In this document: in pieces, positions 445-11,529 of the stretch
Layout of the letters: each line of letters opens with the position of its first letter
Position numbering within the stretch: the first letter of the stretch is position 1
Program-made: the position numbers and the translations under genes
Assembly: GCA_016784125.1 (NCBI GenBank)
Contig: JADHVI010000001.1
Span: forward strand, 78,417 to 142,416
Source: Candidatus Woesearchaeota archaeon
Lineage (GTDB): Archaea > Nanobdellota > Nanobdellia > Woesearchaeales > GCA-2686295
Direction of reading: 5' to 3'
DNA length: 64,000 nucleotides
Notes under the pieces: generated by a model
What the model was told of the DNA's origin: nothing
Seen by the model: the letters and a program-made list of their open reading frames with translations, nothing else
Database searches by the model: none

Positions 445-1491
445 TCAATTCTTCCATCTTAGAATTCCAGCTATTCCTGTTAGTGAATCCAGGTTTTTTT
501 CTGCTTCTTCAGAACTAATAATGTGAACTTTACCATCCATTTGTTCACATGAGATCATCATATTTTCAAGTTCCTTATATGTTCCTTTCTCTTTAGAACT
601 TCGCAATAGTTTTTGACTTACTAGTAATTCTTCAACTGCGCCTAATTGAATTTTTTCTTTTGTTTCTTTGATTCCATAGCATGCTTGTTCTTTTGATATA
701 TATTCCAATAGTTTATCTACGGCTTTAATCTCTTGTATACTTCTGTTTTGTTCAAGCACTTTTCTAAGCTCATCTCGTTTTAGCACTTCGTTTATTGCCC
801 GTTCATTTGCCTGAGATACTGTCGCACTTACACTCTTCTTCTTAATCTCATCTGGAGTAACTTTCAAGAGTTCTTCTTTCCAGAAACCTGGACTTGCCAA
901 GATGATGTGGTCTGTTTGATTTGTTTTCTGAAATTCAGTTATTTTTTCAATTATTTCTTTATAGAAACTTCCTTTTGAAACATGTTTTTCTTCTTTTTTT
1001 TGAACATCTCCTGCCATCTTTGCAATCAGTTTGTATCCTGATCCTATGAGTTTAGCGAAATATGCCTCTTCTCTGTCAAATACAACTATCAAAATGTTTG
1101 TCGGCTGATTCTTTGTTGATTCATCAATTCTTTTTAATTGGAATTTTAACCATTGAGTCTTCTGAATTGTTATTATGGAATTATTTTCAAGGTTAAAGCT
1201 GTGATGTTCACCTCTTGGAATTTCCTCTGGTCCATCCGTAATGGTGCCAAGAACTCTTAGTGTGGCGCCTTCTGATAGTTCTATTTTTTCCACTTTTATG
1301 GCTATAAAAAACTGTTTTCTCACAACTTTTACATTTCTATCAGTATCGTCACCAATCTTTATTTTTCTCTCAGTTCTTCCTTTTATTATATCATCTACGT
1401 CAATGATCTGACTCAGAACCCAGAGATCATCTATGTTTTCTATTTTCAGAGTTAGTTCCTGCTTCTTTAATGCTTTTTTTATGATTTTCAT
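445..1491 (-). CDS. pelA: Pelota (Dom34-like mRNA surveillance / ribosome rescue factor)
   Basis: Translation from the internal Met reads MKIIKKALKKQELTLKIENIDDLWVLSQIIDVDDIIKGRTERKIKIG, a typical Pelota N-terminus, followed by eRF1-like domains 2 and 3. I trimmed the track ORF (445..1533) to the Met at 1491. Confidence 0.9.
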   Translation of the reverse strand: MKIIKKALKKQELTLKIENIDDLWVLSQIIDVDDIIKGRTERKIKIGDDTDRNVKVVRKQFFIAIKVEKIELSEGATLRVLGTITDGPEEIPRGEHHSFNLENNSIITIQKTQWLKFQLKRIDESTKNQPTNILIVVFDREEAYFAKLIGSGYKLIAKMAGDVQKKEEKHVSKGSFYKEIIEKITEFQKTNQTDHIILASPGFWKEELLKVTPDEIKKKSVSATVSQANERAINEVLKRDELRKVLEQNRSIQEIKAVDKLLEYISKEQACYGIKETKEKIQLGAVEELLVSQKLLRSSKEKGTYKELENMMISCEQMDGKVHIISSEEAEKNLDSLTGIAGILRWKN

Positions 1492-1520
1492 ATGTTTGTC
1501 TTTTATTCTGTATATTTCTC

Positions 1521-1528
1521 TATTTAAA
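1521..1528 (-). promoter_or_regulatory. Candidate archaeal TATA box for pelota
   Basis: TTTAAATA on the minus strand sits about 29 nt upstream of the proposed pelota ATG (1491). This spacing fits a leaderless or short-leader archaeal transcript. Confidence 0.3.
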
Positions 1529-1537
1529 ACCAATAAA

Positions 1538-1545
1538 TTTATATA
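1538..1545 (+). promoter_or_regulatory. Candidate archaeal TATA box for the envelope cluster (gene at 1568)
   Basis: TTTATATA ends 22 nt before the ATG at 1568, which matches archaeal TATA-to-TSS spacing with a leaderless mRNA. It is divergent from the pelota promoter. Confidence 0.35.
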
Positions 1546-1567
1546 TCTTGTGTGCGATTATTTGTGT

Positions 1568-2758
1568 ATGAGAAAAAGAGGAGCTGGTGGAAATAGCGCA
1601 AGTGGAGCAGCCATCTTAATAGTTATTGTTGCGGTTATTTTTCTATTATACATATTAATGCTTCCTCCTGAAGATAGAGCAGATTTATTAGGTGAAGACA
1701 ATCGCTCCAATTCTGAGGAAATAACTTCTTCAGGTTTTAATAAGACTCTGTTAAAGGAGAATATTGGTCGTTTGGATTATTTGCGATCTGATTATCGGGA
1801 AAGAGACTTACCATCCTTTAGAATTTATTCACAAAAGGAAGGAACAATTCTTAAGACTCTAAATTCAGTTTATGTAAAGAATGCGATTGGTGATAAGAAA
1901 TATTATAATGTAACTTTTGATATTGCTGAAAGATTAACTTCTGAAGTTAAATTATCTTTTAATGTTAAGCGTGCTCGCGGAAGATTAGAATTATATTTAA
2001 ATGGTGTTGAAATATTTAATGGTGAGCTAGGTAAAGGTTCTCCTAGTCCAATACCACTTCCTTCTGAGGCATTAGATAGCGAAAACACTTTGGTTTTCAA
2101 AGTTTCAAGTCCCGGATTTGCTTTTTGGAGCACTAATGAATATTTGCTAGAAGATGTTATGATTACAGGAGATGTTTTAGATGTGTCTAATAGTAAAAGC
2201 AGACAATTTTTCTATCTCTCAGATATTGAAGTTTTGAATCTTGATGAGATAAGACTTAAGTTTTATCCTGACTGTGATTCAAGATCTGTTGGTCCATTAA
2301 TCATTAATTTAAATGGTGAAGAGGCCTTCTTTGGAGTTGCTGATTGTGGAGTTTATAGAACAGTAACTCTTGATAAAAATAGCATATATGAAGATAAGAA
2401 TGAATTAGAATTTATTGCCACGGAAGGCTCTTACTTGATTGACAGGGTTTCTATTAGAACCGAACTTGAAGAACTTGTCTATCCTGTTTACTACTTTGAT
2501 CTTGATGAAGACTTATTTGATGGTGATGACTTTGATGACAGTTACAATGTTACTTTGCGCTTGAGATTTGTTAACCATGATGATAAAAGATTGGAATACT
2601 TAATTAATGGTAGAAGAAAGCAAATAAATACTGATGAGATTGAATATACCACTTTACTTAATGATTATGTTCTTCCAGAAGCCAATTCATTGGAATTGGT
2701 ACCAAAAAGCATAGTTGACATTTCGGTGCTGAGAGTTACATTGGACGAAGAAGAATAA
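1568..2758 (+). CDS. Signal-anchored extracytoplasmic protein with three internal beta-sandwich-like repeats (envelope cluster gene 1)
   Basis: I trimmed the track ORF 1433..2758 to the ATG at 1568, giving MRKRGAGGNSASGAAILIVIVAVIFLLYILMLPPED: a basic N-terminus followed by one hydrophobic helix. Three repeats carry a shared LNG core: VKLSFNVKRARGRLELYLNGVEIFNG, IRLKFYPDCDSRSVGPLIINLNGEEAFFG and VTLRLRFVNHDDKRLEYLINGRRKQIN. I recognise no family. Confidence 0.6.
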   Translation: MRKRGAGGNSASGAAILIVIVAVIFLLYILMLPPEDRADLLGEDNRSNSEEITSSGFNKTLLKENIGRLDYLRSDYRERDLPSFRIYSQKEGTILKTLNSVYVKNAIGDKKYYNVTFDIAERLTSEVKLSFNVKRARGRLELYLNGVEIFNGELGKGSPSPIPLPSEALDSENTLVFKVSSPGFAFWSTNEYLLEDVMITGDVLDVSNSKSRQFFYLSDIEVLNLDEIRLKFYPDCDSRSVGPLIINLNGEEAFFGVADCGVYRTVTLDKNSIYEDKNELEFIATEGSYLIDRVSIRTELEELVYPVYYFDLDEDLFDGDDFDDSYNVTLRLRFVNHDDKRLEYLINGRRKQINTDEIEYTTLLNDYVLPEANSLELVPKSIVDISVLRVTLDEEE

Positions 2759-2759
2759 A

Positions 2760-4322
2760 ATGGATGGTTCTGACATCAAAGATGGGATTGATAAAGTAAA
2801 TAATTATCTTAAGGGTAAATGGGATTCTTTAACTAAAACTGCCGAGCAACCTGAAGATTTTCGAAAAGGTCAAGTTCTATTTTTAATGCTTCTTGGGGCA
2901 ATTATTTATTGGGTTGATGTTTTCTTTCTAGGTGGTGCAACTGCTTCGTTCATGCCAGGTAAGATAACTGTTTTTCTTTATGCTCTTTTAACTCTAATGG
3001 CAGTCGTTGTATTCAGAGCAGGAATGCAGCAAATAATGGAGTTCATCATTGTTTCCATTGTTGCTATGGTCTGGCCTCGGACAATATCTATGGTTGTTGG
3101 TGGTATGGGTGGGTTGGATAACTTATCTTTTGTTTCTAATACACAGTTTATATCAATATTTCTTACAGCAGTAGTTTTAGTAACTCCGATATGGACTTAC
3201 TATTTTCTATATGTAAGTCGTCTTTCAACTGATCAAGTTCGTGGGTGGGGTAGAAAATGGGCAATCTTATGTTTTTCAATTGCAATTCTCATAACAATCG
3301 TTATGGGCGGCATTGGTACTTTTGCAGGCCCCGCAGATCTTGACTTGGGAGAGGGAGTTAATTATCTAAAAGTTTATTTCTGGGAATATCCGAAAGAAAT
3401 TGGAGTATATCTTTTCACAATTCCAGGAACCTTAACTTCATATCTTAATGAAACTATGGGTTTGAATGAATTTACTGGGAAGGTGGATCAAAATAAAGAT
3501 GGACCATTAGGAGTCTATCTTGAAGACCTATCACCTGCCGAGACTATATTTTATGAATATAATCCTGTTGTAATATGGGCATCTCTAAAAGGAAAGAGTT
3601 TTGAAGGGTACATCCAAGTTAATAATCGTTGTTACACTAAGAAGGATAAGGAAATTGAATTCGGAGAAATATTTCCTCAAACAGTTGATTTATTTTATGA
3701 TGATTCTTCAAGTTTAGAGTGTATATTTGAAGAAGGTTTAGAAGATGGTTCATATGTTGTTACGTTTATTTCTAGCTTTGAGTTTCCAACATGGGGATAT
3801 GTTACTTACACATATGTAGATAAAGATTTGAGACTGGCGTATTATTCTCAGAAAAAGAATATTAATACAGAACTTAATATTCCTACTAAAGTAGAACCGA
3901 TTTATACGAGCGGTCCTGCTTCAATTGAAGCAAACTTAGTTGATTTACCAGTTAGCATATACTCTGATAGAGATTGGCATCCTTCATTTGGTGTCACATT
4001 AGCCAATCTTTGGCCTCAAGGAGAAATTGTTTCTATTAAAAGTTTAGACATGATTATTCCAAATGATCTTTCGCTTGAAAGATGCATACCGACATTCATA
4101 TCTAAAGAACCAAGTGATGAGGGATATAATACCTATTCGTTTAAACTTCAAAGCCATCAAAATTTATTCTCAACAGTAACTTGTCCGTCAGTTAAAATAA
4201 ATGATCCTGAGGCTTTTTTAGGAGACAATTTGAAAGTTTCAAGAACCTTCGCGATAAAAGCGAGTTATATTTATACTTTAGAAAAATCAGTTCATATTAA
4301 AGTTGAAAAGATAGGGAAATGA
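2760..4322 (+). CDS. Polytopic membrane protein (about 5-6 TM helices) with a roughly 300-aa extracytoplasmic C-terminal domain (envelope cluster gene 2)
   Basis: Starts 1 nt after the stop of gene 1. Hydrophobic segments include VLFLMLLGAIIYWVDVFFLGG, ITVFLYALLTLMAVVVF, FIIVSIVAMVW, ISIFLTAVVLVTPIWTYYFLY and WAILCFSIAILITIVMGGIG. By manual alignment, the C-terminal part looks like a divergent, cysteine-poor copy of the module in genes 3-5 (GPLGVYLEDL..., IYTSGPASIEANLV, FAIKASYIYTLEKSVHIKVEK). Confidence 0.6.
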   Translation: MDGSDIKDGIDKVNNYLKGKWDSLTKTAEQPEDFRKGQVLFLMLLGAIIYWVDVFFLGGATASFMPGKITVFLYALLTLMAVVVFRAGMQQIMEFIIVSIVAMVWPRTISMVVGGMGGLDNLSFVSNTQFISIFLTAVVLVTPIWTYYFLYVSRLSTDQVRGWGRKWAILCFSIAILITIVMGGIGTFAGPADLDLGEGVNYLKVYFWEYPKEIGVYLFTIPGTLTSYLNETMGLNEFTGKVDQNKDGPLGVYLEDLSPAETIFYEYNPVVIWASLKGKSFEGYIQVNNRCYTKKDKEIEFGEIFPQTVDLFYDDSSSLECIFEEGLEDGSYVVTFISSFEFPTWGYVTYTYVDKDLRLAYYSQKKNINTELNIPTKVEPIYTSGPASIEANLVDLPVSIYSDRDWHPSFGVTLANLWPQGEIVSIKSLDMIIPNDLSLERCIPTFISKEPSDEGYNTYSFKLQSHQNLFSTVTCPSVKINDPEAFLGDNLKVSRTFAIKASYIYTLEKSVHIKVEKIGK

Positions 4323-5545
4323 TGAAAAAAATTTATTTAGTTTTAGTATTATTTGTTTTACTTACTGCCTGTAATAGAACTTTTACGCCGCAAGAAACTA
4401 ATTATTATACGGGAACAAAAGGGGTTGAGTTGGAGTTTGTGGGTTATAGTCCACCAAATAATGTGTATGAACAAACAACTTTTCCTTTGGCAATTTTTGT
4501 TTCTAATGAGGGTGCATTTTCTTTGAATGGTTCGCCTTTTAAAGGATTAATAACTTATTCTTATGACCCATTTTATTTAGCCGAAATAAATGGTACCGCG
4601 GAATCAGAATTTGAAACTATAATAATAAATGGAAAATCAGATGGTTTTCCTCAAGGTGATCTTCAGACAAAACTATTACCTATGTTTACCGTTAAACCTG
4701 TTTTAGGCCAAAGAGAATCCCCTACAACCGAATTATTTGTTTCAGCTTGTTATCCTTATAATACTAAGCTCGTTGATGAGGTGTGTATTGATACTTCTTC
4801 TTTGACAAATGATATGAGGTCAAATGTTTGTAAAGCAGAAAATAAAGTTTATTCGGGTCAAGGCGCACCCGTTGCAATTACAGAAGTTCATGTACAGATG
4901 AATCACATGCTTAATAAGATTAGACCTTCATTATTAATTAAAATAAAAAATGTTGGTTCGGGAACGGTGTTGGCGCCTGTTTCTAGTTCAGAACAAGCCA
5001 GAGCTTGTGACATTCAAAAAGACAAAAGGGGCGATTGGAATACTGTTAAGATAAAAGCATTGCTTTCTAATGAGCAACTTACTTGTGTACCTGAAGTAGT
5101 TCATCTTCGTCAAGGTGAAGGGTCTGCTCGTTGTTTTATGGAATCTGGCGGGTTTGGAGCTGCTTTGAATTATTATGCTATTATGATAGTAGAATTAGAT
5201 TATGTTTATTTGACCAGTGTTTCAAAAGAAATAACTATTGAGCGTACAGAACTTCCTGATATAGAATATTTATCTTCAAATAATTGTGAATATTGGGAAA
5301 CAGAAATTGATGGGATTTGCAAGAATAACTGCGAGATATGTTCGGAAGGTTCATCACTTTCATTTTGTAATTCACAAATAGTAGATCAGAACTGGTCCTG
5401 TGATTGCGGGCCTATCGAATGTACAACTATTATTGGCTCACGTAAACTAGGTGGCATCGTAGATGGAATTGAAGTAAAAAGTGGAAATTGTATATTTGGT
5501 CAGAGCTTTTGTGCGCCTGGAAAGTACTGTTGTATAAAACAATAA
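4319..5545 (+). CDS. Lipobox surface protein, paralog A; two CARDB-like beta-sandwich segments plus a Cys-rich C-terminal tail (envelope cluster gene 3)
   Basis: ATGA overlap with gene 2. Signal peptide plus lipobox: MMKKIYLVLVLFVLLTAC. Shared family motifs are CYPYNTKLVDEVCID, SGQGAPVAITEVHV, LLIKIKNVGSGTV, LTCVPEV, ARC and IVELDYVY. The last ~90 aa carry about 14 Cys (NNCEYWETEIDGICKNNCEICSEG...CAPGKYCCIKQ). Confidence 0.65.
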   Translation: MMKKIYLVLVLFVLLTACNRTFTPQETNYYTGTKGVELEFVGYSPPNNVYEQTTFPLAIFVSNEGAFSLNGSPFKGLITYSYDPFYLAEINGTAESEFETIIINGKSDGFPQGDLQTKLLPMFTVKPVLGQRESPTTELFVSACYPYNTKLVDEVCIDTSSLTNDMRSNVCKAENKVYSGQGAPVAITEVHVQMNHMLNKIRPSLLIKIKNVGSGTVLAPVSSSEQARACDIQKDKRGDWNTVKIKALLSNEQLTCVPEVVHLRQGEGSARCFMESGGFGAALNYYAIMIVELDYVYLTSVSKEITIERTELPDIEYLSSNNCEYWETEIDGICKNNCEICSEGSSLSFCNSQIVDQNWSCDCGPIECTTIIGSRKLGGIVDGIEVKSGNCIFGQSFCAPGKYCCIKQ

Positions 5546-5577
5546 TTTTAAATATGGAAAGAACAAAAGGTTAACAT

Positions 5578-6945
5578 ATGAATAATAAACTATTAATCGG
5601 ATTTTTTTTGGCTTTAATATTAATATTATCATCTTGTTCGATGTCTTCTAGTGCGCCAACTGATCCAACTACAACTCATTATTATCGCGGATATGAAGGA
5701 ATTAGAATGACTATTGATCCAGGTTCTCTTCCTAGCACGTTATATTACTATGCAAATGCTCCTGATTCTTATAATGCGTTTTCTGTAGATGTAGAAGTTC
5801 ACAATGTTGGGGCTTCTTGGAGTAGAGGAGGAATATATGTTTCTGGTCATGATCCATCTTTGATATTTTTGGAGGGTGTTAATGTTCCAAAAACTAGTGG
5901 TGGTTTTTGGGAACATTGTCAAACAAGACTTTCAATGGGTGACTGGGATTGGTCTAATATTGCAGGAGTCCTAAATTGTAATTTTGGAGATCATGGAGCA
6001 TCTTTTACAGGGGATCCCAATACCGATCAAGCAATTGATGGTGTTAGCATAAACAATTTATTTGGTTTCTTTGGGGCTGGAGATGCAATTAATGATTTGT
6101 TAAGTCAATCAGAGCTGTTGTCAAGATTGGGTTTAAATGAATTGGGAAATATGGATGTAGATTTAACATGGGATGGTCAAACAGATGCTTACGCTTTTAA
6201 TTTTGACTTTACAGAATTTGGATTAAACTTAGATGTATTACATCACGGGGCGGCATTAATGATATTAATGGATTCTCTTAGTTTTGATAGATTTAATGGA
6301 AAATCTTTTTATTTGGCTGCTGATAACTATGATTATCCTGGCGGAGAATTAACTTATATTTCATTTCCTGGGTATGTTAGAGATACTTGGCCTGCTGGTT
6401 TGGATTCAACACCAGTCACATTTATGATTTCATCTTGTTATGCCTACTCAACATATGCAACACCGTTGGTATGTATAGATCCTGATCCTGCATCTCAAAA
6501 TCAAAAAGTTTGTTATCCTGGACAAGTTAGTTTAGCAGGAAGTCAAGGTGCGCCTGTTGCTGTAACGGGTGTTCATCAAGAAAGTGGTCGTTTAAGTACA
6601 ACTTTCACAATAGAAATCAGTAATGTGGGTCATGGAAAAGTTATTTATCCCGGTGATTTGGAATTATGCAGTCCTTATTACCCTGGAGCATTAACCCGAA
6701 AGAACACAGATTTAGTAATACTTGGAGATATTAGAATGTCGGGTAGTGATCAAAGACTAAGATGCACTCCTGATGATAATATTGTAAGACTTAATCCAAT
6801 GACTGGTAAGGGACAGATTATTTGTACTTATGATTATGAATATGCCACATCTAAATCTGCTTATAAAGCTCCTTTGGTAATTGAATTATGGTATGGTTAT
6901 AGTGAAGAGTTACAAAGAACAATTAACATCAAAAGGGCGCGTTAA
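5578..6945 (+). CDS. Lipobox surface protein, paralog B (envelope cluster gene 4)
   Basis: Signal peptide plus lipobox: MNNKLLIGFFLALILILSSC. Family motifs are SCYAYSTYATPLVCIDPD, GSQGAPVAVTGVHQE, FTIEISNVGHGKV, IRMSGSDQRLRCTP and VIELWYGYSEE. It carries a long insertion (about residues 100-260) relative to the paralogs. Confidence 0.65.
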   Translation: MNNKLLIGFFLALILILSSCSMSSSAPTDPTTTHYYRGYEGIRMTIDPGSLPSTLYYYANAPDSYNAFSVDVEVHNVGASWSRGGIYVSGHDPSLIFLEGVNVPKTSGGFWEHCQTRLSMGDWDWSNIAGVLNCNFGDHGASFTGDPNTDQAIDGVSINNLFGFFGAGDAINDLLSQSELLSRLGLNELGNMDVDLTWDGQTDAYAFNFDFTEFGLNLDVLHHGAALMILMDSLSFDRFNGKSFYLAADNYDYPGGELTYISFPGYVRDTWPAGLDSTPVTFMISSCYAYSTYATPLVCIDPDPASQNQKVCYPGQVSLAGSQGAPVAVTGVHQESGRLSTTFTIEISNVGHGKVIYPGDLELCSPYYPGALTRKNTDLVILGDIRMSGSDQRLRCTPDDNIVRLNPMTGKGQIICTYDYEYATSKSAYKAPLVIELWYGYSEELQRTINIKRAR

Positions 6946-7019
6946 TACTCGCCAGTAAAAAAACAAAAAGTTTTATATACTCTAAAGGGATAAAAATATT
7001 TGTTTTGGAGGTCTAAAAA

Positions 7020-7967
7020 ATGAAAAGAACATCACTTTTATTGTTGGTTTTAGCAGTATTTTTGTTAGCTTCTTGCTCTAGCGAGACTATCACATCGAAT
7101 CAAAACACTTTTTTAGGTGGAACAACAGGATTACTAGTTAATTTTGTTGAAGGAGAACCACCACTAGAAGTGACTGATGGTAATGCCACACCATTTACTG
7201 TGAGTATTAAATTAGAAAATCGAGGCGAAACAGAAATTGCAGCAGACGATGTCTTGATATCCCTAAGAGGAATTGATCCTATTTCCTTTAGTGTTACATT
7301 GGATGAGATTATTAATCAACACCCTACTTCAATGATTCTAAAGAATGATTTAAATCCTGATAATGGAGAAAAAATTGATTCTCCACCGGTTTACTTCACA
7401 TTTCCTATGATGAATTATCAAGGGTCTTTGGCAGGAAATGATGATTTTCCTTTTGTCGTAGATGTTTGTTATAAATATCGGACTTTGGCAACATCAAAAT
7501 TATGTGTGAAGGAAAATACTATGGATTCAACTCATAACGATGTTTGTACAGTTTCTGAAAAGAAATCTGTTCAAAATTCTGGTGCACCAATACAAATAGT
7601 TAGCTTTGATGAATCATCAGCAGGTCAAGATGCAGTTGCTTTCTCTGTTAAGATTAAGGACATGGGTAGTGGACTACTTGCACAACAAGGAACAATGTGC
7701 AATGATCATGCAGGAACAAAAAATATTGTGAAACTAACTGTTGATACTGGTATTTCAGGTTTAACCTGCGGGGGTCTTTCTAATCCTTCAACAACAGGAA
7801 CTGCTTACTCAGGTGACATTAGAATGAGTACAGGAGAAGTATCTGTAAGATGTACTCAACAGTTATCTCCAGCAGATAAATCTGACAAAGTAATGATTGT
7901 TGATATGTTTATAGATTATGACTACCAAGAATCAAAAGCGACATCTGTGCTAGTTAAGCACATTTAA
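7020..7967 (+). CDS. Lipobox surface protein, paralog C (envelope cluster gene 5)
   Basis: GGAGGT Shine-Dalgarno 8 nt upstream. Signal peptide plus lipobox: MKRTSLLLLVLAVFLLASC. Family motifs are VCYKYRTLATSKLCVKE, QNSGAPIQIVSFDE, FSVKIKDMGSGLL, IRMSTGEVSVRCTQ and DMFIDYDYQE. This is the shortest member and looks like the minimal two-domain architecture. Confidence 0.65.
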   Translation: MKRTSLLLLVLAVFLLASCSSETITSNQNTFLGGTTGLLVNFVEGEPPLEVTDGNATPFTVSIKLENRGETEIAADDVLISLRGIDPISFSVTLDEIINQHPTSMILKNDLNPDNGEKIDSPPVYFTFPMMNYQGSLAGNDDFPFVVDVCYKYRTLATSKLCVKENTMDSTHNDVCTVSEKKSVQNSGAPIQIVSFDESSAGQDAVAFSVKIKDMGSGLLAQQGTMCNDHAGTKNIVKLTVDTGISGLTCGGLSNPSTTGTAYSGDIRMSTGEVSVRCTQQLSPADKSDKVMIVDMFIDYDYQESKATSVLVKHI

Positions 7968-7985: not shown

Positions 7986-8939
7986 TTAACTATTTATTAG
8001 AACAAATTTACTTAGAAGAGCCTCTAATTGTATGAATTCATCACTGCCTTCAACCATTCTAAACTCTGCTTCACCACACTCTTTTACCATTTCAAGTTTT
8101 TTCTTGTCTTCCGTTTCTAATGACCAGATTTCTTTTTGAATTTGTTTAATAATATCTAATCCTGACAATCCATATTCAAGCATTGTTTTCAGAAGCTCAT
8201 TCTTTGCACTCACAAAATCTTTTTTTACACATGACTCCAAGACGCTTTTGACTTCTTTTGGCCTTGCTACACTAGCCATTTCAAAGATTAAATTTTCATC
8301 TATCTTTTTGGTAATTGCTGCAGATGATTGCAAAATATTTTCTACTTTTCTGCAATCGCCATTGGAAATCTCATAGAGTGCTTCTTTTGCTTTTGAATCA
8401 ATAGTAAGAGATTCATCTTTAGCAATTTTATCCATTATGTAGAACATATCTTCTTTAGCTAACGGTTTAAATCTGAATACAGTACATCTGGATTGTATAG
8501 GATCAATTATCTTGGATGAGTAATTACACGATAGGATGAACCTGCATGTTTGAGTATAATTCTCCATGGTTCTCCTCAGAGCTTGTTGAGCTTCTTTAGT
8601 CAAAGCGTCACATTCATCTAGATAAATTATTTTGAATGGAACATTTCCTATGGCTTTAGTTCTAGCAAAGTCTTTTACTTTAACTCTAATAACATCTATT
8701 CCTCTCTCATCAGATGCATTTAGTTCAAGAAAGTTCTCTCGCCAAGAATCTTTAAACATTTGTTTTGCAACAACAAGCGAAAGAGTGGTTTTACCAGTTC
8801 CTGCTGGGCCTGCAAACATTAAATGAGGCATGTTCTGTTGTTTAACAAACGCTTCTGTTCGTTTAACAATTTCTTGTTGGCCTTTTATCTCTGAGAATGT
8901 TTGAGGTCTATACTTTTCAGTCCATATAGCTGCTTCCAT
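7986..8939 (-). CDS. rfcS: Replication factor C small subunit
   Basis: WTEKYRPQTFSEIKGQQEIV..., Walker A GPAGTGKTT, DEAD-like LDECD, SRC motif (IQSRC). 317 aa with no intein. Confidence 0.95.
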   Translation of the reverse strand: MEAAIWTEKYRPQTFSEIKGQQEIVKRTEAFVKQQNMPHLMFAGPAGTGKTTLSLVVAKQMFKDSWRENFLELNASDERGIDVIRVKVKDFARTKAIGNVPFKIIYLDECDALTKEAQQALRRTMENYTQTCRFILSCNYSSKIIDPIQSRCTVFRFKPLAKEDMFYIMDKIAKDESLTIDSKAKEALYEISNGDCRKVENILQSSAAITKKIDENLIFEMASVARPKEVKSVLESCVKKDFVSAKNELLKTMLEYGLSGLDIIKQIQKEIWSLETEDKKKLEMVKECGEAEFRMVEGSDEFIQLEALLSKFVLINS

Positions 8940-10334: not shown

Positions 10335-10952
10335 TTACATTACTTTGATGAGTGAGTATGAAAACGCATCAGCAACTCTAACGGCATCTCCTTCTTTGTA
10401 TTCAAGGATTATACATCTATTATAACCATAAACAGTGTTTCTATTACTTTTCTTGAAAGATATTACAACTACTTCTTGACTGGCATTATCACAAGTTGCA
10501 TATGGTAAACCTTCAACTAAATCATTTACTGCACTAACTGTTTTAATATTGAGCACTTCATATCTTTCACCAGTTATCTTGGCAATTTCTATTCCTGCAA
10601 TTGCCATGTCTGAACTGCTATCTCCTGGTAAAGAGATTATAATTTTTTTAGGTCTGTAAACAAGTATTATGTTTTCCACATCTTCTTCTACATTGATGTC
10701 TTCTAATTCATTTGGGTGAAAATAATATGGTATGGTGTAAGGTACTTTGTTGAGTTCAATCTTTGTAAACCATAATTCGCTACTCTGGTCATAATAGAAT
10801 TGGAATTCATGATAATTATTAGCATTAACTTGACTTTCAACTTTGTGCTTACTGTAATAAATAGATCCTATAAGAACCACGCATATCACAATGACTATAA
10901 CAATAAACCAAACTTTGCTTTCATTGCTTTTCTTACTGCTCTTCTTCATCAT
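10335..10952 (-). CDS. N-terminally anchored extracytoplasmic protein, tandem paralog 2 (hypothetical)
   Basis: TM helix VWFIVIVIVICVVLIGSIYY. Shares YHEFQF, WFTKI, FHPNEL, ATCDNASQ and RCIIL with the upstream paralog. Confidence 0.55.
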   Translation of the reverse strand: MMKKSSKKSNESKVWFIVIVIVICVVLIGSIYYSKHKVESQVNANNYHEFQFYYDQSSELWFTKIELNKVPYTIPYYFHPNELEDINVEEDVENIILVYRPKKIIISLPGDSSSDMAIAGIEIAKITGERYEVLNIKTVSAVNDLVEGLPYATCDNASQEVVVISFKKSNRNTVYGYNRCIILEYKEGDAVRVADAFSYSLIKVM

Positions 10953-11529
10953 TCATAACACCATAGTGCACATATAGAATTAAATCTCTGAATCTAAAGA
11001 AGTCTTCTGTGTATCCATTCATTATGATACACCCATTTTCTTCTCTTATGCTTGTTTCGGTTGAAATATTAAAATATATTACAGGCATAAACTGTGTGGC
11101 ATTATCACAAGTAATTTTTGGAAGAAAGTATGTATCTGATTCTTTTGTTATGCCATCAATGACAAAAGAACTTATAGTAATCTGAAGATCTCTTCTTACA
11201 GAATCAATATACAATAAATTTTGTAATTCACTATCAGGATCAAAAGTAAGATACATGACAGGAGACAATAATTTTTCATTTAAAGAGTTTGGATGTTCTA
11301 AATACAGTAATTCTTGTGGTAATGACTGAAAGCCAATTCTCTGTTCACCAATCTTGGTTACAAAGACATTTTCAGTTCTTGTGAATTTGAAGCCGTTATA
11401 TTCCCATTTCTCACTACCTCTATTACCAACAATGATGCCCAGCATACTGACAACCATTAGGAGGACTAGTACTCCGCCCATCAAAAACTTCTTTTTTCGG
11501 GCCTTTCGAGAGTCTATTCTTTTAAGCAT
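10933..11529 (-). CDS. N-terminally anchored extracytoplasmic protein, tandem paralog 1 (hypothetical)
   Basis: TM helix FLMGGVLVLLMVVSMLGIIV. Motifs YNGFKF, FVTKI, EHPNSL, ITCDNATQ and GCIIM. Overlaps the downstream paralog by 20 nt. Confidence 0.55.
   Translation of the reverse strand: MLKRIDSRKARKKKFLMGGVLVLLMVVSMLGIIVGNRGSEKWEYNGFKFTRTENVFVTKIGEQRIGFQSLPQELLYLEHPNSLNEKLLSPVMYLTFDPDSELQNLLYIDSVRRDLQITISSFVIDGITKESDTYFLPKITCDNATQFMPVIYFNISTETSIREENGCIIMNGYTEDFFRFRDLILYVHYGVMNDEEEQ

What the first reader, a model, noticed from the sequence alone, without database searches (positions are those of the whole stretch)
3480..7967. A shared two-domain, disulfide-patterned module present in three lipoproteins and (divergently) in the ectodomain of the polytopic protein
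Manual alignment shows the same ordered motif series in the three lipoproteins. (1) An N-terminal G-x-x-G-[VIL]-x-[LMV]-x-F followed by x-V-x-[IV]-x-N-x-G (FPLAIFVSNEGAFS / FSVDVEVHNVGASW / FTVSIKLENRGETE). (2) C-Y-x-Y-x-T-x5-6-[VL]-C-[IV] (CYPYNTKLVDEVCID / CYAYSTYATPLVCID / CYKYRTLATSKLCVK). (3) A further C, then G-A-P-[VI]-x-[IV] (SGQGAPVAITEV / GSQGAPVAVTGV / QNSGAPIQIVSF). (4) A second x-I-K-[ND]-[VM]-G-x-G segment. (5) L-[TR]-C and [AV]-R-C. (6) A terminal [IVM]-[DE]-x-x-Y-x-Y strand. The x-V-x-V-x-N-x-G-x-x-x strands look like CARDB-type Ig-like beta-sandwiches. The conserved Cys positions imply structural disulfides. The C-terminal 300 aa of the polytopic protein carry the same series without the cysteines (GPLGVYLEDL, IWASLKGKSFEG, FPTWGYVTYTYVD, TSGPASIEANLV, ASYIYTLEKSVHIKVEK); I am less sure of that alignment.
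Basis: seen in the sequence. Interest (0 to 1): 0.65.

Follow-up and report, generated by a model that had tools for sequence, protein, structure and literature searches.

The report
Woesearchaeal surface lipoprotein trio, wall-hydrolase-linked operon
Three neighbouring genes of a tiny uncultured archaeon encode related, disulfide-stapled surface lipoproteins in a conserved five-gene operon, and in relatives the operon's membrane protein carries enzymes that cut bacterial cell walls, so this may be contact machinery aimed at bacteria.

Summary
The core observation holds. LipA (4319-5545), LipB (5578-6945) and LipC (7020-7967) are true paralogs (BLASTP 1e-9 to 4e-14; profile-profile 5e-39 to 2e-63). 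Each has a lipobox signal peptide and a ~290-aa module. AlphaFold2 models that module confidently (pLDDT 94) as two tandem beta-sandwiches. Six conserved cysteines show a co-loss pattern that implies pairs 150-227, 162-176 and 250-278.

The claim for the polytopic protein (2760-4322) is only suggestive. Its ectodomain has the same two-domain architecture and keeps the last cysteine pair, but profile comparisons give only P = 0.003-0.17.

Wider context: the window comes from a Ca. Woesearchaeota MAG. The three genes end a five-gene operon (anchor protein, polytopic protein, LipA, LipB, LipC) conserved between Pelota and RFC in about 30 DPANN genomes. No Pfam, NCBIfam or PDB relative exists.

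The polytopic protein's ectodomain family has 1,201 clusters. It is repeatedly fused C-terminally to peptidoglycan hydrolases: SLT, amidase, M23, NlpC/P60, muramidase and glucosaminidase. Three of these fusions lie inside this same operon.

Best reading: a hetero-oligomeric surface scaffold that, in many lineages, presents murein hydrolases to bacterial walls. Function is inferred, not shown.

The parts
1568..2758 (+). ORF1, the first gene of the operon. It has an N-terminal [KR][KR]G(Q) motif plus a hydrophobic anchor, followed by about 350 aa of repeated beta-rich (galactose-binding-like?) domains. The true start is probably the ATG at 1568, not 1433.
   Evidence: Orthologs sit at the same position in 24 loci. 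N-terminal motif conserved. Internal repeat, hhalign 4.7e-11. Only sub-threshold BetaGal_ABD2, GH2_N and BcsB hits. The stop lies 1 nt before the POLY start.
2760..4322 (+). POLY, a polytopic membrane protein (520 aa). It has about five TM helices (aa 37-190) and a C-terminal ectodomain.
   Evidence: ORF and hydropathy. Identical to NCBI ISS09_00490 of a Ca. Woesearchaeota MAG. Positional orthologs in 27 loci. No Pfam, NCBIfam or PDB match.
3480..4319 (+). POLY ectodomain module (aa ~241-520). It has two beta domains (aa 251-354 and 387-516), each closed by a long hairpin. Conserved Cys at 291, 321, 442 and 474. Possibly a fourth, very divergent copy of the lipoprotein module.
   Evidence: AF2 pLDDT ~85 over aa 250-520. 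Foldseek hits the same generic tandem-Ig set as LipC. hhalign to the lipoprotein profiles P = 0.003-0.17. The family has 1,201 clusters at E <= 1e-3.
4319..5545 (+). LipA (408 aa). Lipobox LLTAC (Cys18), two-domain module (aa ~27-310; Cys 144, 156, 171, 230, 256, 272), then a clade-specific Cys-rich tail (aa 311-408, nt 5249-5542).
   Evidence: The start overlaps the POLY stop (ATGA).
5578..6945 (+). LipB (455 aa). Lipobox LSSC (Cys20) and the same module (Cys 287, 299, 312, 364, 396, 416), with a 134-aa insertion in domain 1 (aa 101-234, nt 5878-6279).
   Evidence: Distant orthologs lack the insertion and are about 310-325 aa.
7020..7967 (+). LipC (315 aa), the minimal form of the module. Lipobox LASC (Cys19), domain 1 aa ~30-165, linker, domain 2 aa ~180-315. 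Cys 150, 162, 176, 227, 250, 278.
   Evidence: AF2 pLDDT 94.2, pTM 0.86. Cys co-loss.

Best explanation
Shown:
- The region encodes three paralogous lipobox lipoproteins, LipA, LipB and LipC. Their ectodomain is a previously unclassified ~290-aa module of two tandem beta-sandwich domains with six conserved cysteines.
- They are the last three genes of a tightly packed five-gene operon: ORF1 (anchor), POLY (polytopic), LipA, LipB, LipC.
- The operon is conserved in order and position, between Pelota and the RFC small subunit, across Woesearchaeota/Nanoarchaeia MAGs.
- A, B and C are kept as three separate orthologous lines.
- The POLY ectodomain family is large and recurrently carries C-terminal peptidoglycan hydrolase domains, including inside this same operon context.

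Inferred:
- The cysteines form three disulfides: one inter-domain (150-227), one in the linker (162-176) and one within domain 2 (250-278).
- The POLY ectodomain is a fourth, strongly diverged copy of the module.
- POLY, the three lipid-anchored paralogs and ORF1 assemble on the outer face of the membrane into a fixed hetero-oligomeric scaffold.
- The scaffold's job is contact with other cells. In many lineages it holds murein-cutting domains against a bacterial wall, for attachment, local wall breaching or murein scavenging.
- In this genome POLY carries no hydrolase, so here the complex would act as the bare scaffold or adhesin. LipA's Cys-rich tail is a lineage-specific add-on.
For: Paralogy.

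Fold: (pLDDT 94.2), with generic tandem-Ig Foldseek hits.

Lipoprotein character:
- An N-terminal hydrophobic segment plus an aligned Cys is present in 97 of 99 members. Most have a canonical [LVI][ASTG][GAS]C lipobox.
- Lipoproteins and the candidate lipidation enzyme AliA are reported to be prevalent in DPANN (PMC12462473).

Disulfides: C150 and C227 are lost together in 5 sequences, and C250 and C278 together in 2.

Operon and synteny:
-.
- Gene junctions are a 1-nt gap and an ATGA overlap.
- In distant loci the first, second and third lipoproteins best match LipA, LipB and LipC respectively.

POLY ectodomain:
- It has the same architecture and the same secondary-structure order as LipC, with each domain ending in a long (about 25-residue) hairpin.
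- Its weak matches to the lipoprotein profiles are colinear and include the Cys pair.

Hydrolase link:
- Among 33 POLY-family members of at least 900 aa: 18 SLT, 2 Amidase_2, 1 Muramidase, 1 Peptidase_M23, 1 NlpC/P60.
- Among 63 members of 620-899 aa: 9 SLT, 1 Amidase_2, 1 NlpC/P60. No other enzyme class appears.
- Positional orthologs within the operon carry M23 (L023, L032) and Glucosaminidase (L030).
- Source names include 'transglycosylase SLT domain-containing protein' and 'N-acetylmuramidase domain-containing protein [Ca. Woesearchaeota]'.

Literature:
- Large extracellular SLT proteins are reported as specific to Woese-/Pacearchaeota and proposed to bind or degrade bacterial walls (PMC8204110, PMC9723730).
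- Archaeal peptidoglycan hydrolases have been shown to kill bacteria and are prominent in Nanoarchaeota (PMC12352652).
Against: - No direct evidence that the five proteins form a complex. This rests on operon conservation, translational coupling and paralogy.
- POLY-lipoprotein homology is not statistically established. P = 0.003-0.17, and the unrelated-looking ORF1 profile scores P = 0.025 against the lipoprotein profile over 23 columns.
- The window's own POLY has no hydrolase domain, and no PGH-like sequence exists in the 64-kb window.
- Most POLY members under 600 aa also lack a hydrolase, so hydrolysis cannot be the core function.
- Hydrolases might be attached to POLY merely because it is a convenient surface anchor.
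- No coordinates were available, so the disulfide geometry and the Ig topology were not checked directly.
- Lipidation is predicted only.
Confidence: 0.55

Rival explanations
1. A generic structural envelope complex: an S-layer-like or membrane-stabilising scaffold of Woesearchaeota. The lipoproteins and POLY build the cell's own surface coat. Peptidoglycan hydrolases are opportunistically grafted onto an abundant surface anchor and say nothing about the core function.
For: - The operon is a core, housekeeping-linked locus found in all sampled relatives, whether or not POLY carries a hydrolase.
- The window POLY lacks any enzyme domain.
- Other fusions are structural or adhesive: fn3, PKD and beta/gamma-crystallin.
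- In L008, Laminin_G_3 and Beta_helix surface-protein genes are inserted into the operon.
Against: - Every enzymatic fusion found is a murein hydrolase, from six or seven different families. That bias is unexpected for a neutral anchor.
- No similarity to known S-layer proteins was seen in Pfam or the PDB.
Confidence: 0.25
2. Only the three lipoproteins share the module. The POLY ectodomain is an unrelated pair of beta-sandwiches, and its resemblance is generic to Ig-like folds, including hydrophobic alternation and Y-x-Y strands.
For: - BLASTP finds nothing.
- hhalign P = 0.08 with the best-curated alignments.
- Probability never exceeds 21%.
- ORF1 reaches a similar P (0.025).
- Both models hit the same very generic Foldseek targets at TM about 0.1-0.25.
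Against: - The weak hits are colinear and in register for both domains (P about 0.01 each).
- They align POLY C442 and C474 to the LipC C250-C278 pair, and the G-P motif to G-A-P.
- Reversed-profile controls score lower (P = 0.23-0.31).
- Both modules have the same element order, with a terminal long hairpin in each domain.
- The genes are adjacent and translationally coupled.
Confidence: 0.3
3. The complex remodels a wall polymer of the archaeon itself, in an autolysin or divisome-like role. POLY would be the membrane platform for hydrolases and the lipoproteins would be regulators, by analogy with FtsEX-EnvC or lipoprotein activators in bacteria.
For: - Recurrent PGH fusions.
- Membrane platform plus lipoprotein partners in one operon.
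Against: - No murein synthesis genes were seen near the operon in any locus.
- The literature consulted treats murein hydrolases as normally absent from Archaea and, where present, as directed at bacterial walls (PMC8204110, PMC12352652).
- Many genomes, including this one, have POLY without a hydrolase.
Confidence: 0.07
4. The lipoproteins are solute-binding or nutrient-capture proteins that feed a transporter formed by POLY.
For: - Lipid-anchored extracellular proteins encoded next to a polytopic membrane protein.
- ORF1 has weak carbohydrate-binding-like hits.
Against: - The fold is a tandem beta-sandwich, not a periplasmic-binding-protein fold.
- The operon contains no ATPase or permease family.
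- The POLY TM region matches no transporter family in 96 members.
Confidence: 0.03

Closest known systems
CARDB (PF07705) and other E-set Ig-like beta-sandwich domains
   Same: An all-beta sandwich with an x-V-x-V-x-N-x-G strand motif, on an extracellular prokaryotic surface protein. Seven of 44 LipC orthologs give weak CARDB hits. Other weak hits are DUF11, MG4, DUF4352 and NUP210-Ig.
   Different: All hits are below Pfam's gathering threshold, and the window proteins give none. The conserved six-Cys pattern, the long terminal hairpins and the fixed two-domain unit are not CARDB features.
Tandem IgG-like adhesin and stalk modules: MSCRAMM N2-N3 (ClfB, SdrG, FnBPA), integrin alpha thigh/calf, transglutaminase C-terminal barrels, AglB/STT3 C-terminal domain
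   Same: These are the best Foldseek matches for both LipC and the POLY ectodomain (E about 1e-5 to 1e-6, probability up to 1.0). They share the two consecutive beta-sandwiches on a cell surface.
   Different: TM-scores are only 0.1-0.3, rmsd exceeds 12 A and identity is 7-12%. There is no sequence similarity to any PDB chain. The resemblance is at the level of fold class only.
Large extracellular murein lytic transglycosylase (SLT/GH23) proteins of Woesearchaeota and Pacearchaeota (fam00969 in PMC8204110; PMC9723730)
   Same: The same lineages are involved. POLY-family members include proteins annotated as SLT or N-acetylmuramidase proteins of Ca. Woesearchaeota. These probably overlap with the published class.
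   Different: The publications describe the hydrolase domain only. The N-terminal polytopic region, the two-domain ectodomain and the operon with three paralogous lipoproteins are not mentioned in the papers read. The window's POLY has no SLT domain.
Membrane-anchored multi-hydrolase proteins of monoderm conjugation systems (VirB1-like PrgK, TraG, TcpG) and WxL-locus surface complexes. Partly recalled from general knowledge.
   Same: They combine a TM anchor with SLT, M23, NlpC/P60(CHAP) or glucosaminidase domains to open peptidoglycan locally. WxL-interacting proteins appear among the Foldseek hits (9i25_C, 9i1y_A).
   Different: The locus contains no VirB4/VirD4 ATPases or other T4SS genes. 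It lies in a chromosomal housekeeping context. This is a functional analogy only.
Archaeal lipobox lipoproteins (AliA/AliB pathway; PMC12462473)
   Same: A Sec-type signal peptide ending in [LVI][AST][GAS]C. Lipoproteins and AliA are reported as prevalent in DPANN.
   Different: Lipidation has been demonstrated only in Haloferax. Some family members have non-canonical -1/-2 residues such as FGC, QAC and ARC.

Membership tests
Lipobox lipoproteins (bacterial-type or archaeal) | N-terminal signal peptide with a positively charged n-region and a hydrophobic h-region, followed by a lipobox [LVI][ASTVI][GAS]C | tested here: met
   LipA MMKKIYLVLVLFVLLTAC, LipB ...LILILSSC, LipC ...VFLLASC. The Cys column is present in 97 of 99 family members.
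Lipobox lipoproteins (bacterial-type or archaeal) | Actual lipid modification and signal-peptide cleavage at the Cys | not testable with these tools
   Needs mass spectrometry or labelling. AliA is reported in DPANN generally (PMC12462473) but was not looked for in this genome.
CARDB (PF07705) | Score at or above the Pfam gathering threshold | tested here: not met
   The window proteins give no CARDB hit at E <= 1. Seven of 44 orthologs give sub-threshold hits, best E = 0.0026.
Tandem Ig-like beta-sandwich surface modules (fold class) | Two consecutive all-beta sandwich domains in a confident model, with structural matches to Ig-like tandem domains | tested here: met
   AF2 pLDDT 94.2 and pTM 0.86, all-beta in two blocks. 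Foldseek top hits are integrin legs, MSCRAMMs and TG2 barrels at probability 0.85-0.99 but TM about 0.2. Strand topology was not inspected because no coordinates were available.
The LipA/B/C two-domain module family, with the POLY ectodomain as a proposed fourth member | Significant sequence or profile similarity to the lipoprotein module | tested here: inconclusive
   BLASTP finds nothing. hhalign P = 0.003-0.17, best probability 21%. hmmsearch best E = 0.0014-0.0026 in small databases. Reversed control P = 0.23-0.31.
The LipA/B/C two-domain module family, with the POLY ectodomain as a proposed fourth member | Same domain architecture and order of secondary-structure elements | tested here: met
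   Both have two beta domains, each ending in a hairpin of about 23-25 residues. The elements correspond one to one in domain 2.
The LipA/B/C two-domain module family, with the POLY ectodomain as a proposed fourth member | The six-cysteine pattern | tested here: not met
   POLY keeps only the equivalents of C250 and C278 (its C442 and C474). It has its own pair, C291 and C321, in domain 1, and lacks the equivalents of C150, C162, C176 and C227.
DPANN large murein-hydrolase surface proteins (SLT/GH23 class) | Presence of an SLT or other peptidoglycan hydrolase domain | tested here: not met
   The window POLY gives no Pfam hit. tblastn with SLT, M23 and glucosaminidase domains against the window finds nothing.
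DPANN large murein-hydrolase surface proteins (SLT/GH23 class) | Shared N-terminal polytopic region and two-domain ectodomain with hydrolase-bearing members | tested here: met
   The window's own POLY (as its identical database copy P0048) scores E = 5.6e-143 against the ectodomain profile, which includes it; that same profile retrieves the hydrolase-bearing members, for example P0113 at E = 3.4e-67 (matched stretch aa 180-575) with SLT at aa 623-722.

The most novel reading that the evidence does not exclude
ORF1, POLY and LipA/B/C form a DPANN-specific, membrane-embedded cell-contact machine. Four paralogous two-sandwich modules, one on a polytopic core and three lipid-anchored, would form a pseudo-symmetric extracellular assembly. 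The assembly would dock the archaeon onto bacteria and, through interchangeable murein-hydrolase heads, breach their walls. That would make it the molecular basis of archaeon-on-bacterium episymbiosis or predation in Woese-/Pacearchaeota.
Probability: 0.3. Interest if true: 0.85.

Novelty: new variant of a known kind. Interest (0 to 1): 0.6.

Why it matters
Woesearchaeota and Pacearchaeota make up a large share of archaeal diversity, yet none of the studies read here identified their hosts or their contact machinery. Published work noted only that some encode large murein transglycosylases. This analysis ties those hydrolases to a defined membrane platform. That platform sits in a universally conserved five-gene operon together with three paralogous, confidently modelled lipoproteins. 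The result is a concrete, testable candidate for the surface apparatus: targets for multimer modelling, antibodies or FISH-correlated cryo-ET, metaproteomics and recombinant wall-binding assays. It also defines at least two new protein families that currently have no Pfam or NCBIfam model: the lipoprotein module, and the POLY ectodomain with about 1,200 clusters at 50% identity.

Tried and rejected
Searches that found nothing:
- Pfam, NCBIfam and PADLOC scans of all five operon proteins gave nothing above threshold.
- Profile searches of LipC, POLY and ORF1 against PDB sequences gave nothing.
- Foldseek of LipC against viral BFVD gave only weak generic hits.
- Foldseek against the PDB gave only fold-class matches for both models.
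- The window contains no fourth lipoprotein, no second POLY and no PGH-like sequence.
- A literature search for Woesearchaeota lipoproteins found nothing relevant.

Attempts to raise the POLY-lipoprotein signal, none better than P about 0.003:
- L-INS-i realignment.
- Adding AF2-derived secondary structure.
- A 169-sequence POLY profile.
- Paralog-specific profiles.

Other tests:
- ORF1 against the lipoprotein and POLY profiles showed no real similarity.
- Domain 1 against domain 2 within the module was not significant (P = 0.16).

Technical problems:
- The search for related loci with the full 44-sequence alignment failed because no stretch was conserved enough. It worked with 12 closer sequences.
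- The word-indexed homolog search recovered few POLY relatives (6 and 8 hits). This limited the POLY AF2 alignment to 10 sequences, so the TM domain is poorly modelled (pLDDT 40-65).

Ideas considered and dropped:
- AglB/STT3 relationship: only a generic beta-domain hit.
- T4SS or mobile element: the locus has a housekeeping context and no ATPases.
- Solute-binding proteins: wrong fold.

Full report
**What is there.**
The + strand between Pelota (445-1533, -) and the RFC small subunit (7986-8939, -) carries five tightly packed genes:
- ORF1, whose likely start is 1568 (MRKRG...), ending at 2758.
- POLY, a polytopic protein, 2760-4322.
- LipA, 4319-5545.
- LipB, 5578-6945.
- LipC, 7020-7967.

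ORF1 stops 1 nt before POLY starts. The POLY stop and the LipA start overlap as ATGA. POLY is 100% identical to ISS09_00490 of a Candidatus Woesearchaeota MAG. GC content is about 33%.

**Check of the observation: the three lipoproteins.**
- The three proteins are significantly similar pairwise: A-B 4e-14, A-C 1e-9, B-C 3e-12.
- Profiles built from their orthologs match at 2.3e-63, 4.2e-42 and 4.9e-39 with 100% probability over the whole module.
- All three start with a signal peptide ending in a lipobox (LLTAC, LSSC, LASC).
- In 99 family members from about 35 genomes, the N-terminal Cys column is occupied in 97. Most members have a canonical lipobox.
- Lipoproteins and the candidate lipidation enzyme AliA are reported as prevalent in DPANN (PMC12462473).

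**Structure of the module.**
- AlphaFold2 on 44 LipC orthologs gives mean pLDDT 94.2 and pTM 0.86. The model is all-beta in two blocks: aa ~38-163 and ~184-313. Each block ends in a hairpin of about 23 residues, which are the C-Y-x-Y and Y-x-Y motifs.
- Foldseek against the PDB returns only tandem Ig-like proteins: integrin alpha legs, MSCRAMM N2-N3, transglutaminase C-terminal barrels, the STT3/AglB soluble domain and WxLIP. These score E about 1e-5 but TM about 0.2.
- BFVD gives nothing specific.
- There is no sequence match to any PDB chain, and no Pfam or NCBIfam family.
- CARDB appears only below threshold, in 7 of 44 orthologs (best E = 0.0026).
- 'Two Ig-like sandwiches' is therefore supported. 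'CARDB' is at most a distant clan-level resemblance.

**Cysteines.**
- Six module cysteines (LipC 150, 162, 176, 227, 250, 278) are present in 94-99 of 99 sequences.
- The exceptions lose them in pairs: 150 with 227 in five sequences, and 250 with 278 in two.
- This implies the disulfides 150-227 (inter-domain), 162-176 (hairpin to linker) and 250-278 (within domain 2).
- The neighbouring cysteines of the C-Y-x-Y...C motif are therefore probably not partners.
- The equivalent positions are 144, 156, 171, 230, 256, 272 in LipA and 287, 299, 312, 364, 396, 416 in LipB.
- LipA has an extra Cys-rich tail (aa 311-408), found only in LipA orthologs of the closest clade.
- LipB has a 134-aa insertion in domain 1 (aa 101-234).
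- In distant relatives all three lipoproteins are about 310-325 aa, which is the bare module.

**The polytopic protein.**
POLY has about five TM helices (aa 37-190) and an ectodomain.
- BLASTP against the lipoproteins finds nothing.
- Profile-profile results vary with the alignments:
  - P = 0.003.
  - P = 0.08 with curated alignments.
  - P = 0.015-0.019, probability 17-21%, when AF2-derived secondary structure is added. Reversed-profile controls give 0.23-0.31.
  - P = 0.003-0.17 with a 169-sequence POLY profile.
- Against the LipA profile, two separate colinear segments score about 0.01 each: the N-terminal Y-x-G...G-V-x-L-x motif, and domain 2.
- Cross hmmsearches give best E = 0.0014-0.0026 in databases of 99 and 183 sequences, always domain 2 to domain 2.
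- ORF1, which looks unrelated, reaches P = 0.025 over 23 columns. The statistics alone therefore do not establish homology.
- The AF2 model of POLY used 10 sequences. It is poor in the membrane region (pLDDT 40-65) but reasonable for aa 250-520 (about 85). It shows two beta domains (251-354 and 387-516), each closed by a hairpin of about 25 residues. This matches the LipC layout.
- It hits the same generic PDB set as LipC.
- POLY is not cysteine-free. C291, C321, C442 and C474 are conserved. C442 and C474 align with the LipC pair 250-278.
- I estimate about 70% that the ectodomain is a very divergent fourth copy. It remains unproven.

**Conservation and context.**
- LipC has 47 relatives in the 5.8-billion-protein set. 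All named ones are annotated as hypothetical proteins of Woesearchaeota, Nanoarchaeota or DPANN, apart from one Bacteroidota-labelled record (P0012) that is probably mis-binned. None has a Pfam domain.
- In 43 loci fetched from MAGs (some duplicates; about 35 distinct), the order ORF1-POLY-LipA-LipB-LipC is kept. It usually lies between Pelota and RFC.
- The first, second and third lipoproteins of distant loci best match LipA, LipB and LipC respectively. The triplication is therefore old, and each copy is individually retained. That pattern is expected for non-interchangeable subunits of one assembly.
- The window has exactly one ORF1, one POLY and three lipoproteins.

**The functional lead.**
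- A profile of the POLY ectodomain finds 1,201 clusters (50% identity) at E <= 1e-3 among 1.84 billion representatives, and 705 at E <= 1e-30. Lengths range from about 280 to 1,470 aa (shortest entries apparently fragments).
- Pfam scans of the longer members show C-terminal additions that are overwhelmingly peptidoglycan hydrolases:
  - 33 proteins of at least 900 aa: 18 SLT, 2 Amidase_2, 1 Muramidase, 1 Peptidase_M23, 1 NlpC/P60.
  - 63 proteins of 620-899 aa: 9 SLT, 1 Amidase_2, 1 NlpC/P60.
  - The only other additions are non-enzymatic domains: fn3, PKD, beta/gamma-crystallin and an I36 peptidase-inhibitor domain.
- Positional POLY orthologs inside the same five-gene operon carry hydrolases too. 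Family membership was confirmed.
  - L023: Peptidase_M23, aa 696-800, plus an SLT-like tail by eye.
  - L032: Peptidase_M23, aa 791-901.
  - L030: Glucosaminidase, aa 495-601.
  - L027: a weak M15_4 hit.
- Source names agree: 'transglycosylase SLT domain-containing protein', 'N-acetylmuramidase domain-containing protein [Ca. Woesearchaeota]' and 'soluble lytic murein transglycosylase'.
- The literature had noted large extracellular SLT proteins specific to Woese-/Pacearchaeota. It proposed that they bind or degrade bacterial walls, in episymbiosis or 'vampiristic' predation (PMC8204110, PMC9723730).
- Archaeal PGHs have been shown to kill bacteria and are prominent in Nanoarchaeota (PMC12352652).
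- The papers read do not describe the membrane platform, its two-domain ectodomain or the lipoprotein operon.

**Mechanism proposed.**
Shown:
- Paralogy.
- The confident AF2-predicted fold class.
- Conserved cysteines with paired loss.
- Lipobox signals.
- Operon conservation.
- Recurrent PGH fusion to POLY.

Inferred:
- POLY, the three lipid-anchored paralogs and ORF1 form a fixed hetero-oligomeric scaffold on the outer face of the membrane.
- ORF1 has a conserved [KR][KR]GQ-hydrophobic-LPPxxR N-terminus reminiscent of a class III signal. It also has internally repeated beta domains (4.7e-11) with sub-threshold galactose-binding-like hits.
- In many lineages the scaffold presents murein hydrolases to a bacterial wall.
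- In this genome POLY has no hydrolase, and none lies in the window. The core role must therefore be structural or adhesive rather than catalytic.

The main rival is a generic envelope scaffold to which hydrolases are attached opportunistically. An autolysin-like role on the archaeon's own wall and a solute-binding role are unlikely.

**Verdict.**
- The structural interpretation is largely right.
- The CARDB label and the POLY extension are only weakly supported.
- The statement that POLY lacks the cysteines is wrong.
- The families are new: they have no Pfam, NCBIfam or PDB relative, although they belong to a familiar fold class.
- The operon-level link to murein hydrolases makes this a concrete candidate for the DPANN-bacterium contact apparatus.
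- Interest 0.6. Novelty: new variant of a known kind.

Noticed in passing
window 1433-2758 (+), especially 1568-1700: ORF1's true start is probably the ATG at 1568 (MRKRGAGG...), not 1433. Its N-terminus, [KR][KR]G(Q) followed by a short polar stretch, a hydrophobic helix and LPPxxRxxLLGE, is conserved in most of the 24 orthologs. It resembles an archaeal class III (prepilin-type) signal peptide. The rest of the protein contains an internal repeat (hhalign 4.7e-11) with sub-threshold galactose-binding-like hits (BetaGal_ABD2, GH2_N, BcsB).
   Followed up: partly
window 5249-5542 (+), LipA aa 311-408: A Cys-rich C-terminal tail of about 100 aa (14 Cys, ending ...YCCIKQ) has no family match. It is found only on LipA orthologs of the closest clade (12 loci). 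A differently patterned Cys-rich tail ending ...ACCIPKE sits on the POLY ortholog of L006.
   Followed up: partly
window 5878-6279 (+), LipB aa 101-234: A 134-aa insertion in domain 1 of LipB is shared by LipB orthologs of the close clade (~430 aa). It is absent from distant orthologs (~315 aa). It has no family match.
   Followed up: no
window 10335-10952 (-) and 10933-11529 (-): Two adjacent, overlapping genes encode paralogous proteins of about 200 aa (BLASTP 1e-8). Each has an N-terminal TM anchor, a shared ...TCDNA[ST]Q... motif and a second conserved Cys. Two Pfam-less genes of similar size occupy the same position in related loci (for example L001 11323-12505, L002 11355-12552).
   Followed up: partly
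L008 2918-7750 (-): In one relative the operon is split. Two genes of about 800 aa on the opposite strand, with Laminin_G_3 and Beta_helix domains (surface or adhesin-like), lie between LipA and LipB. Another Laminin_G_3 protein of 1,047 aa lies just downstream.
   Followed up: no
L023 3211-6156 (+): This in-operon POLY ortholog carries Peptidase_M23 (aa 696-800). It is followed by a tail with an SLT-like pattern (...ALTETGG...IGMMQI...) that Pfam did not call at E <= 1e-3. It may therefore carry two hydrolase heads.
   Followed up: no
loci L015, L016, L029, L031, L032, L034, L035, L037, L039, L041; proteins P0012 and P0058: Several MAG records carrying this DPANN operon with the same flanking synteny are titled 'uncultured Methanosarcinales archaeon'. 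One contig is labelled 'Bacteroidota bacterium'. These are probably taxonomic mislabels or mis-binning.
   Followed up: no
POLY orthologs, N-terminal region (for example L002 3258-3700, L006 4406-5000): The cytoplasmic N-terminus of POLY is highly variable in length (about 35 to over 350 aa). It is Lys/Glu/Ala-rich and looks like a coiled coil or low-complexity region. The TM core keeps a P-x-W-x-x-Y motif (window P143, W145, Y148).
   Followed up: no
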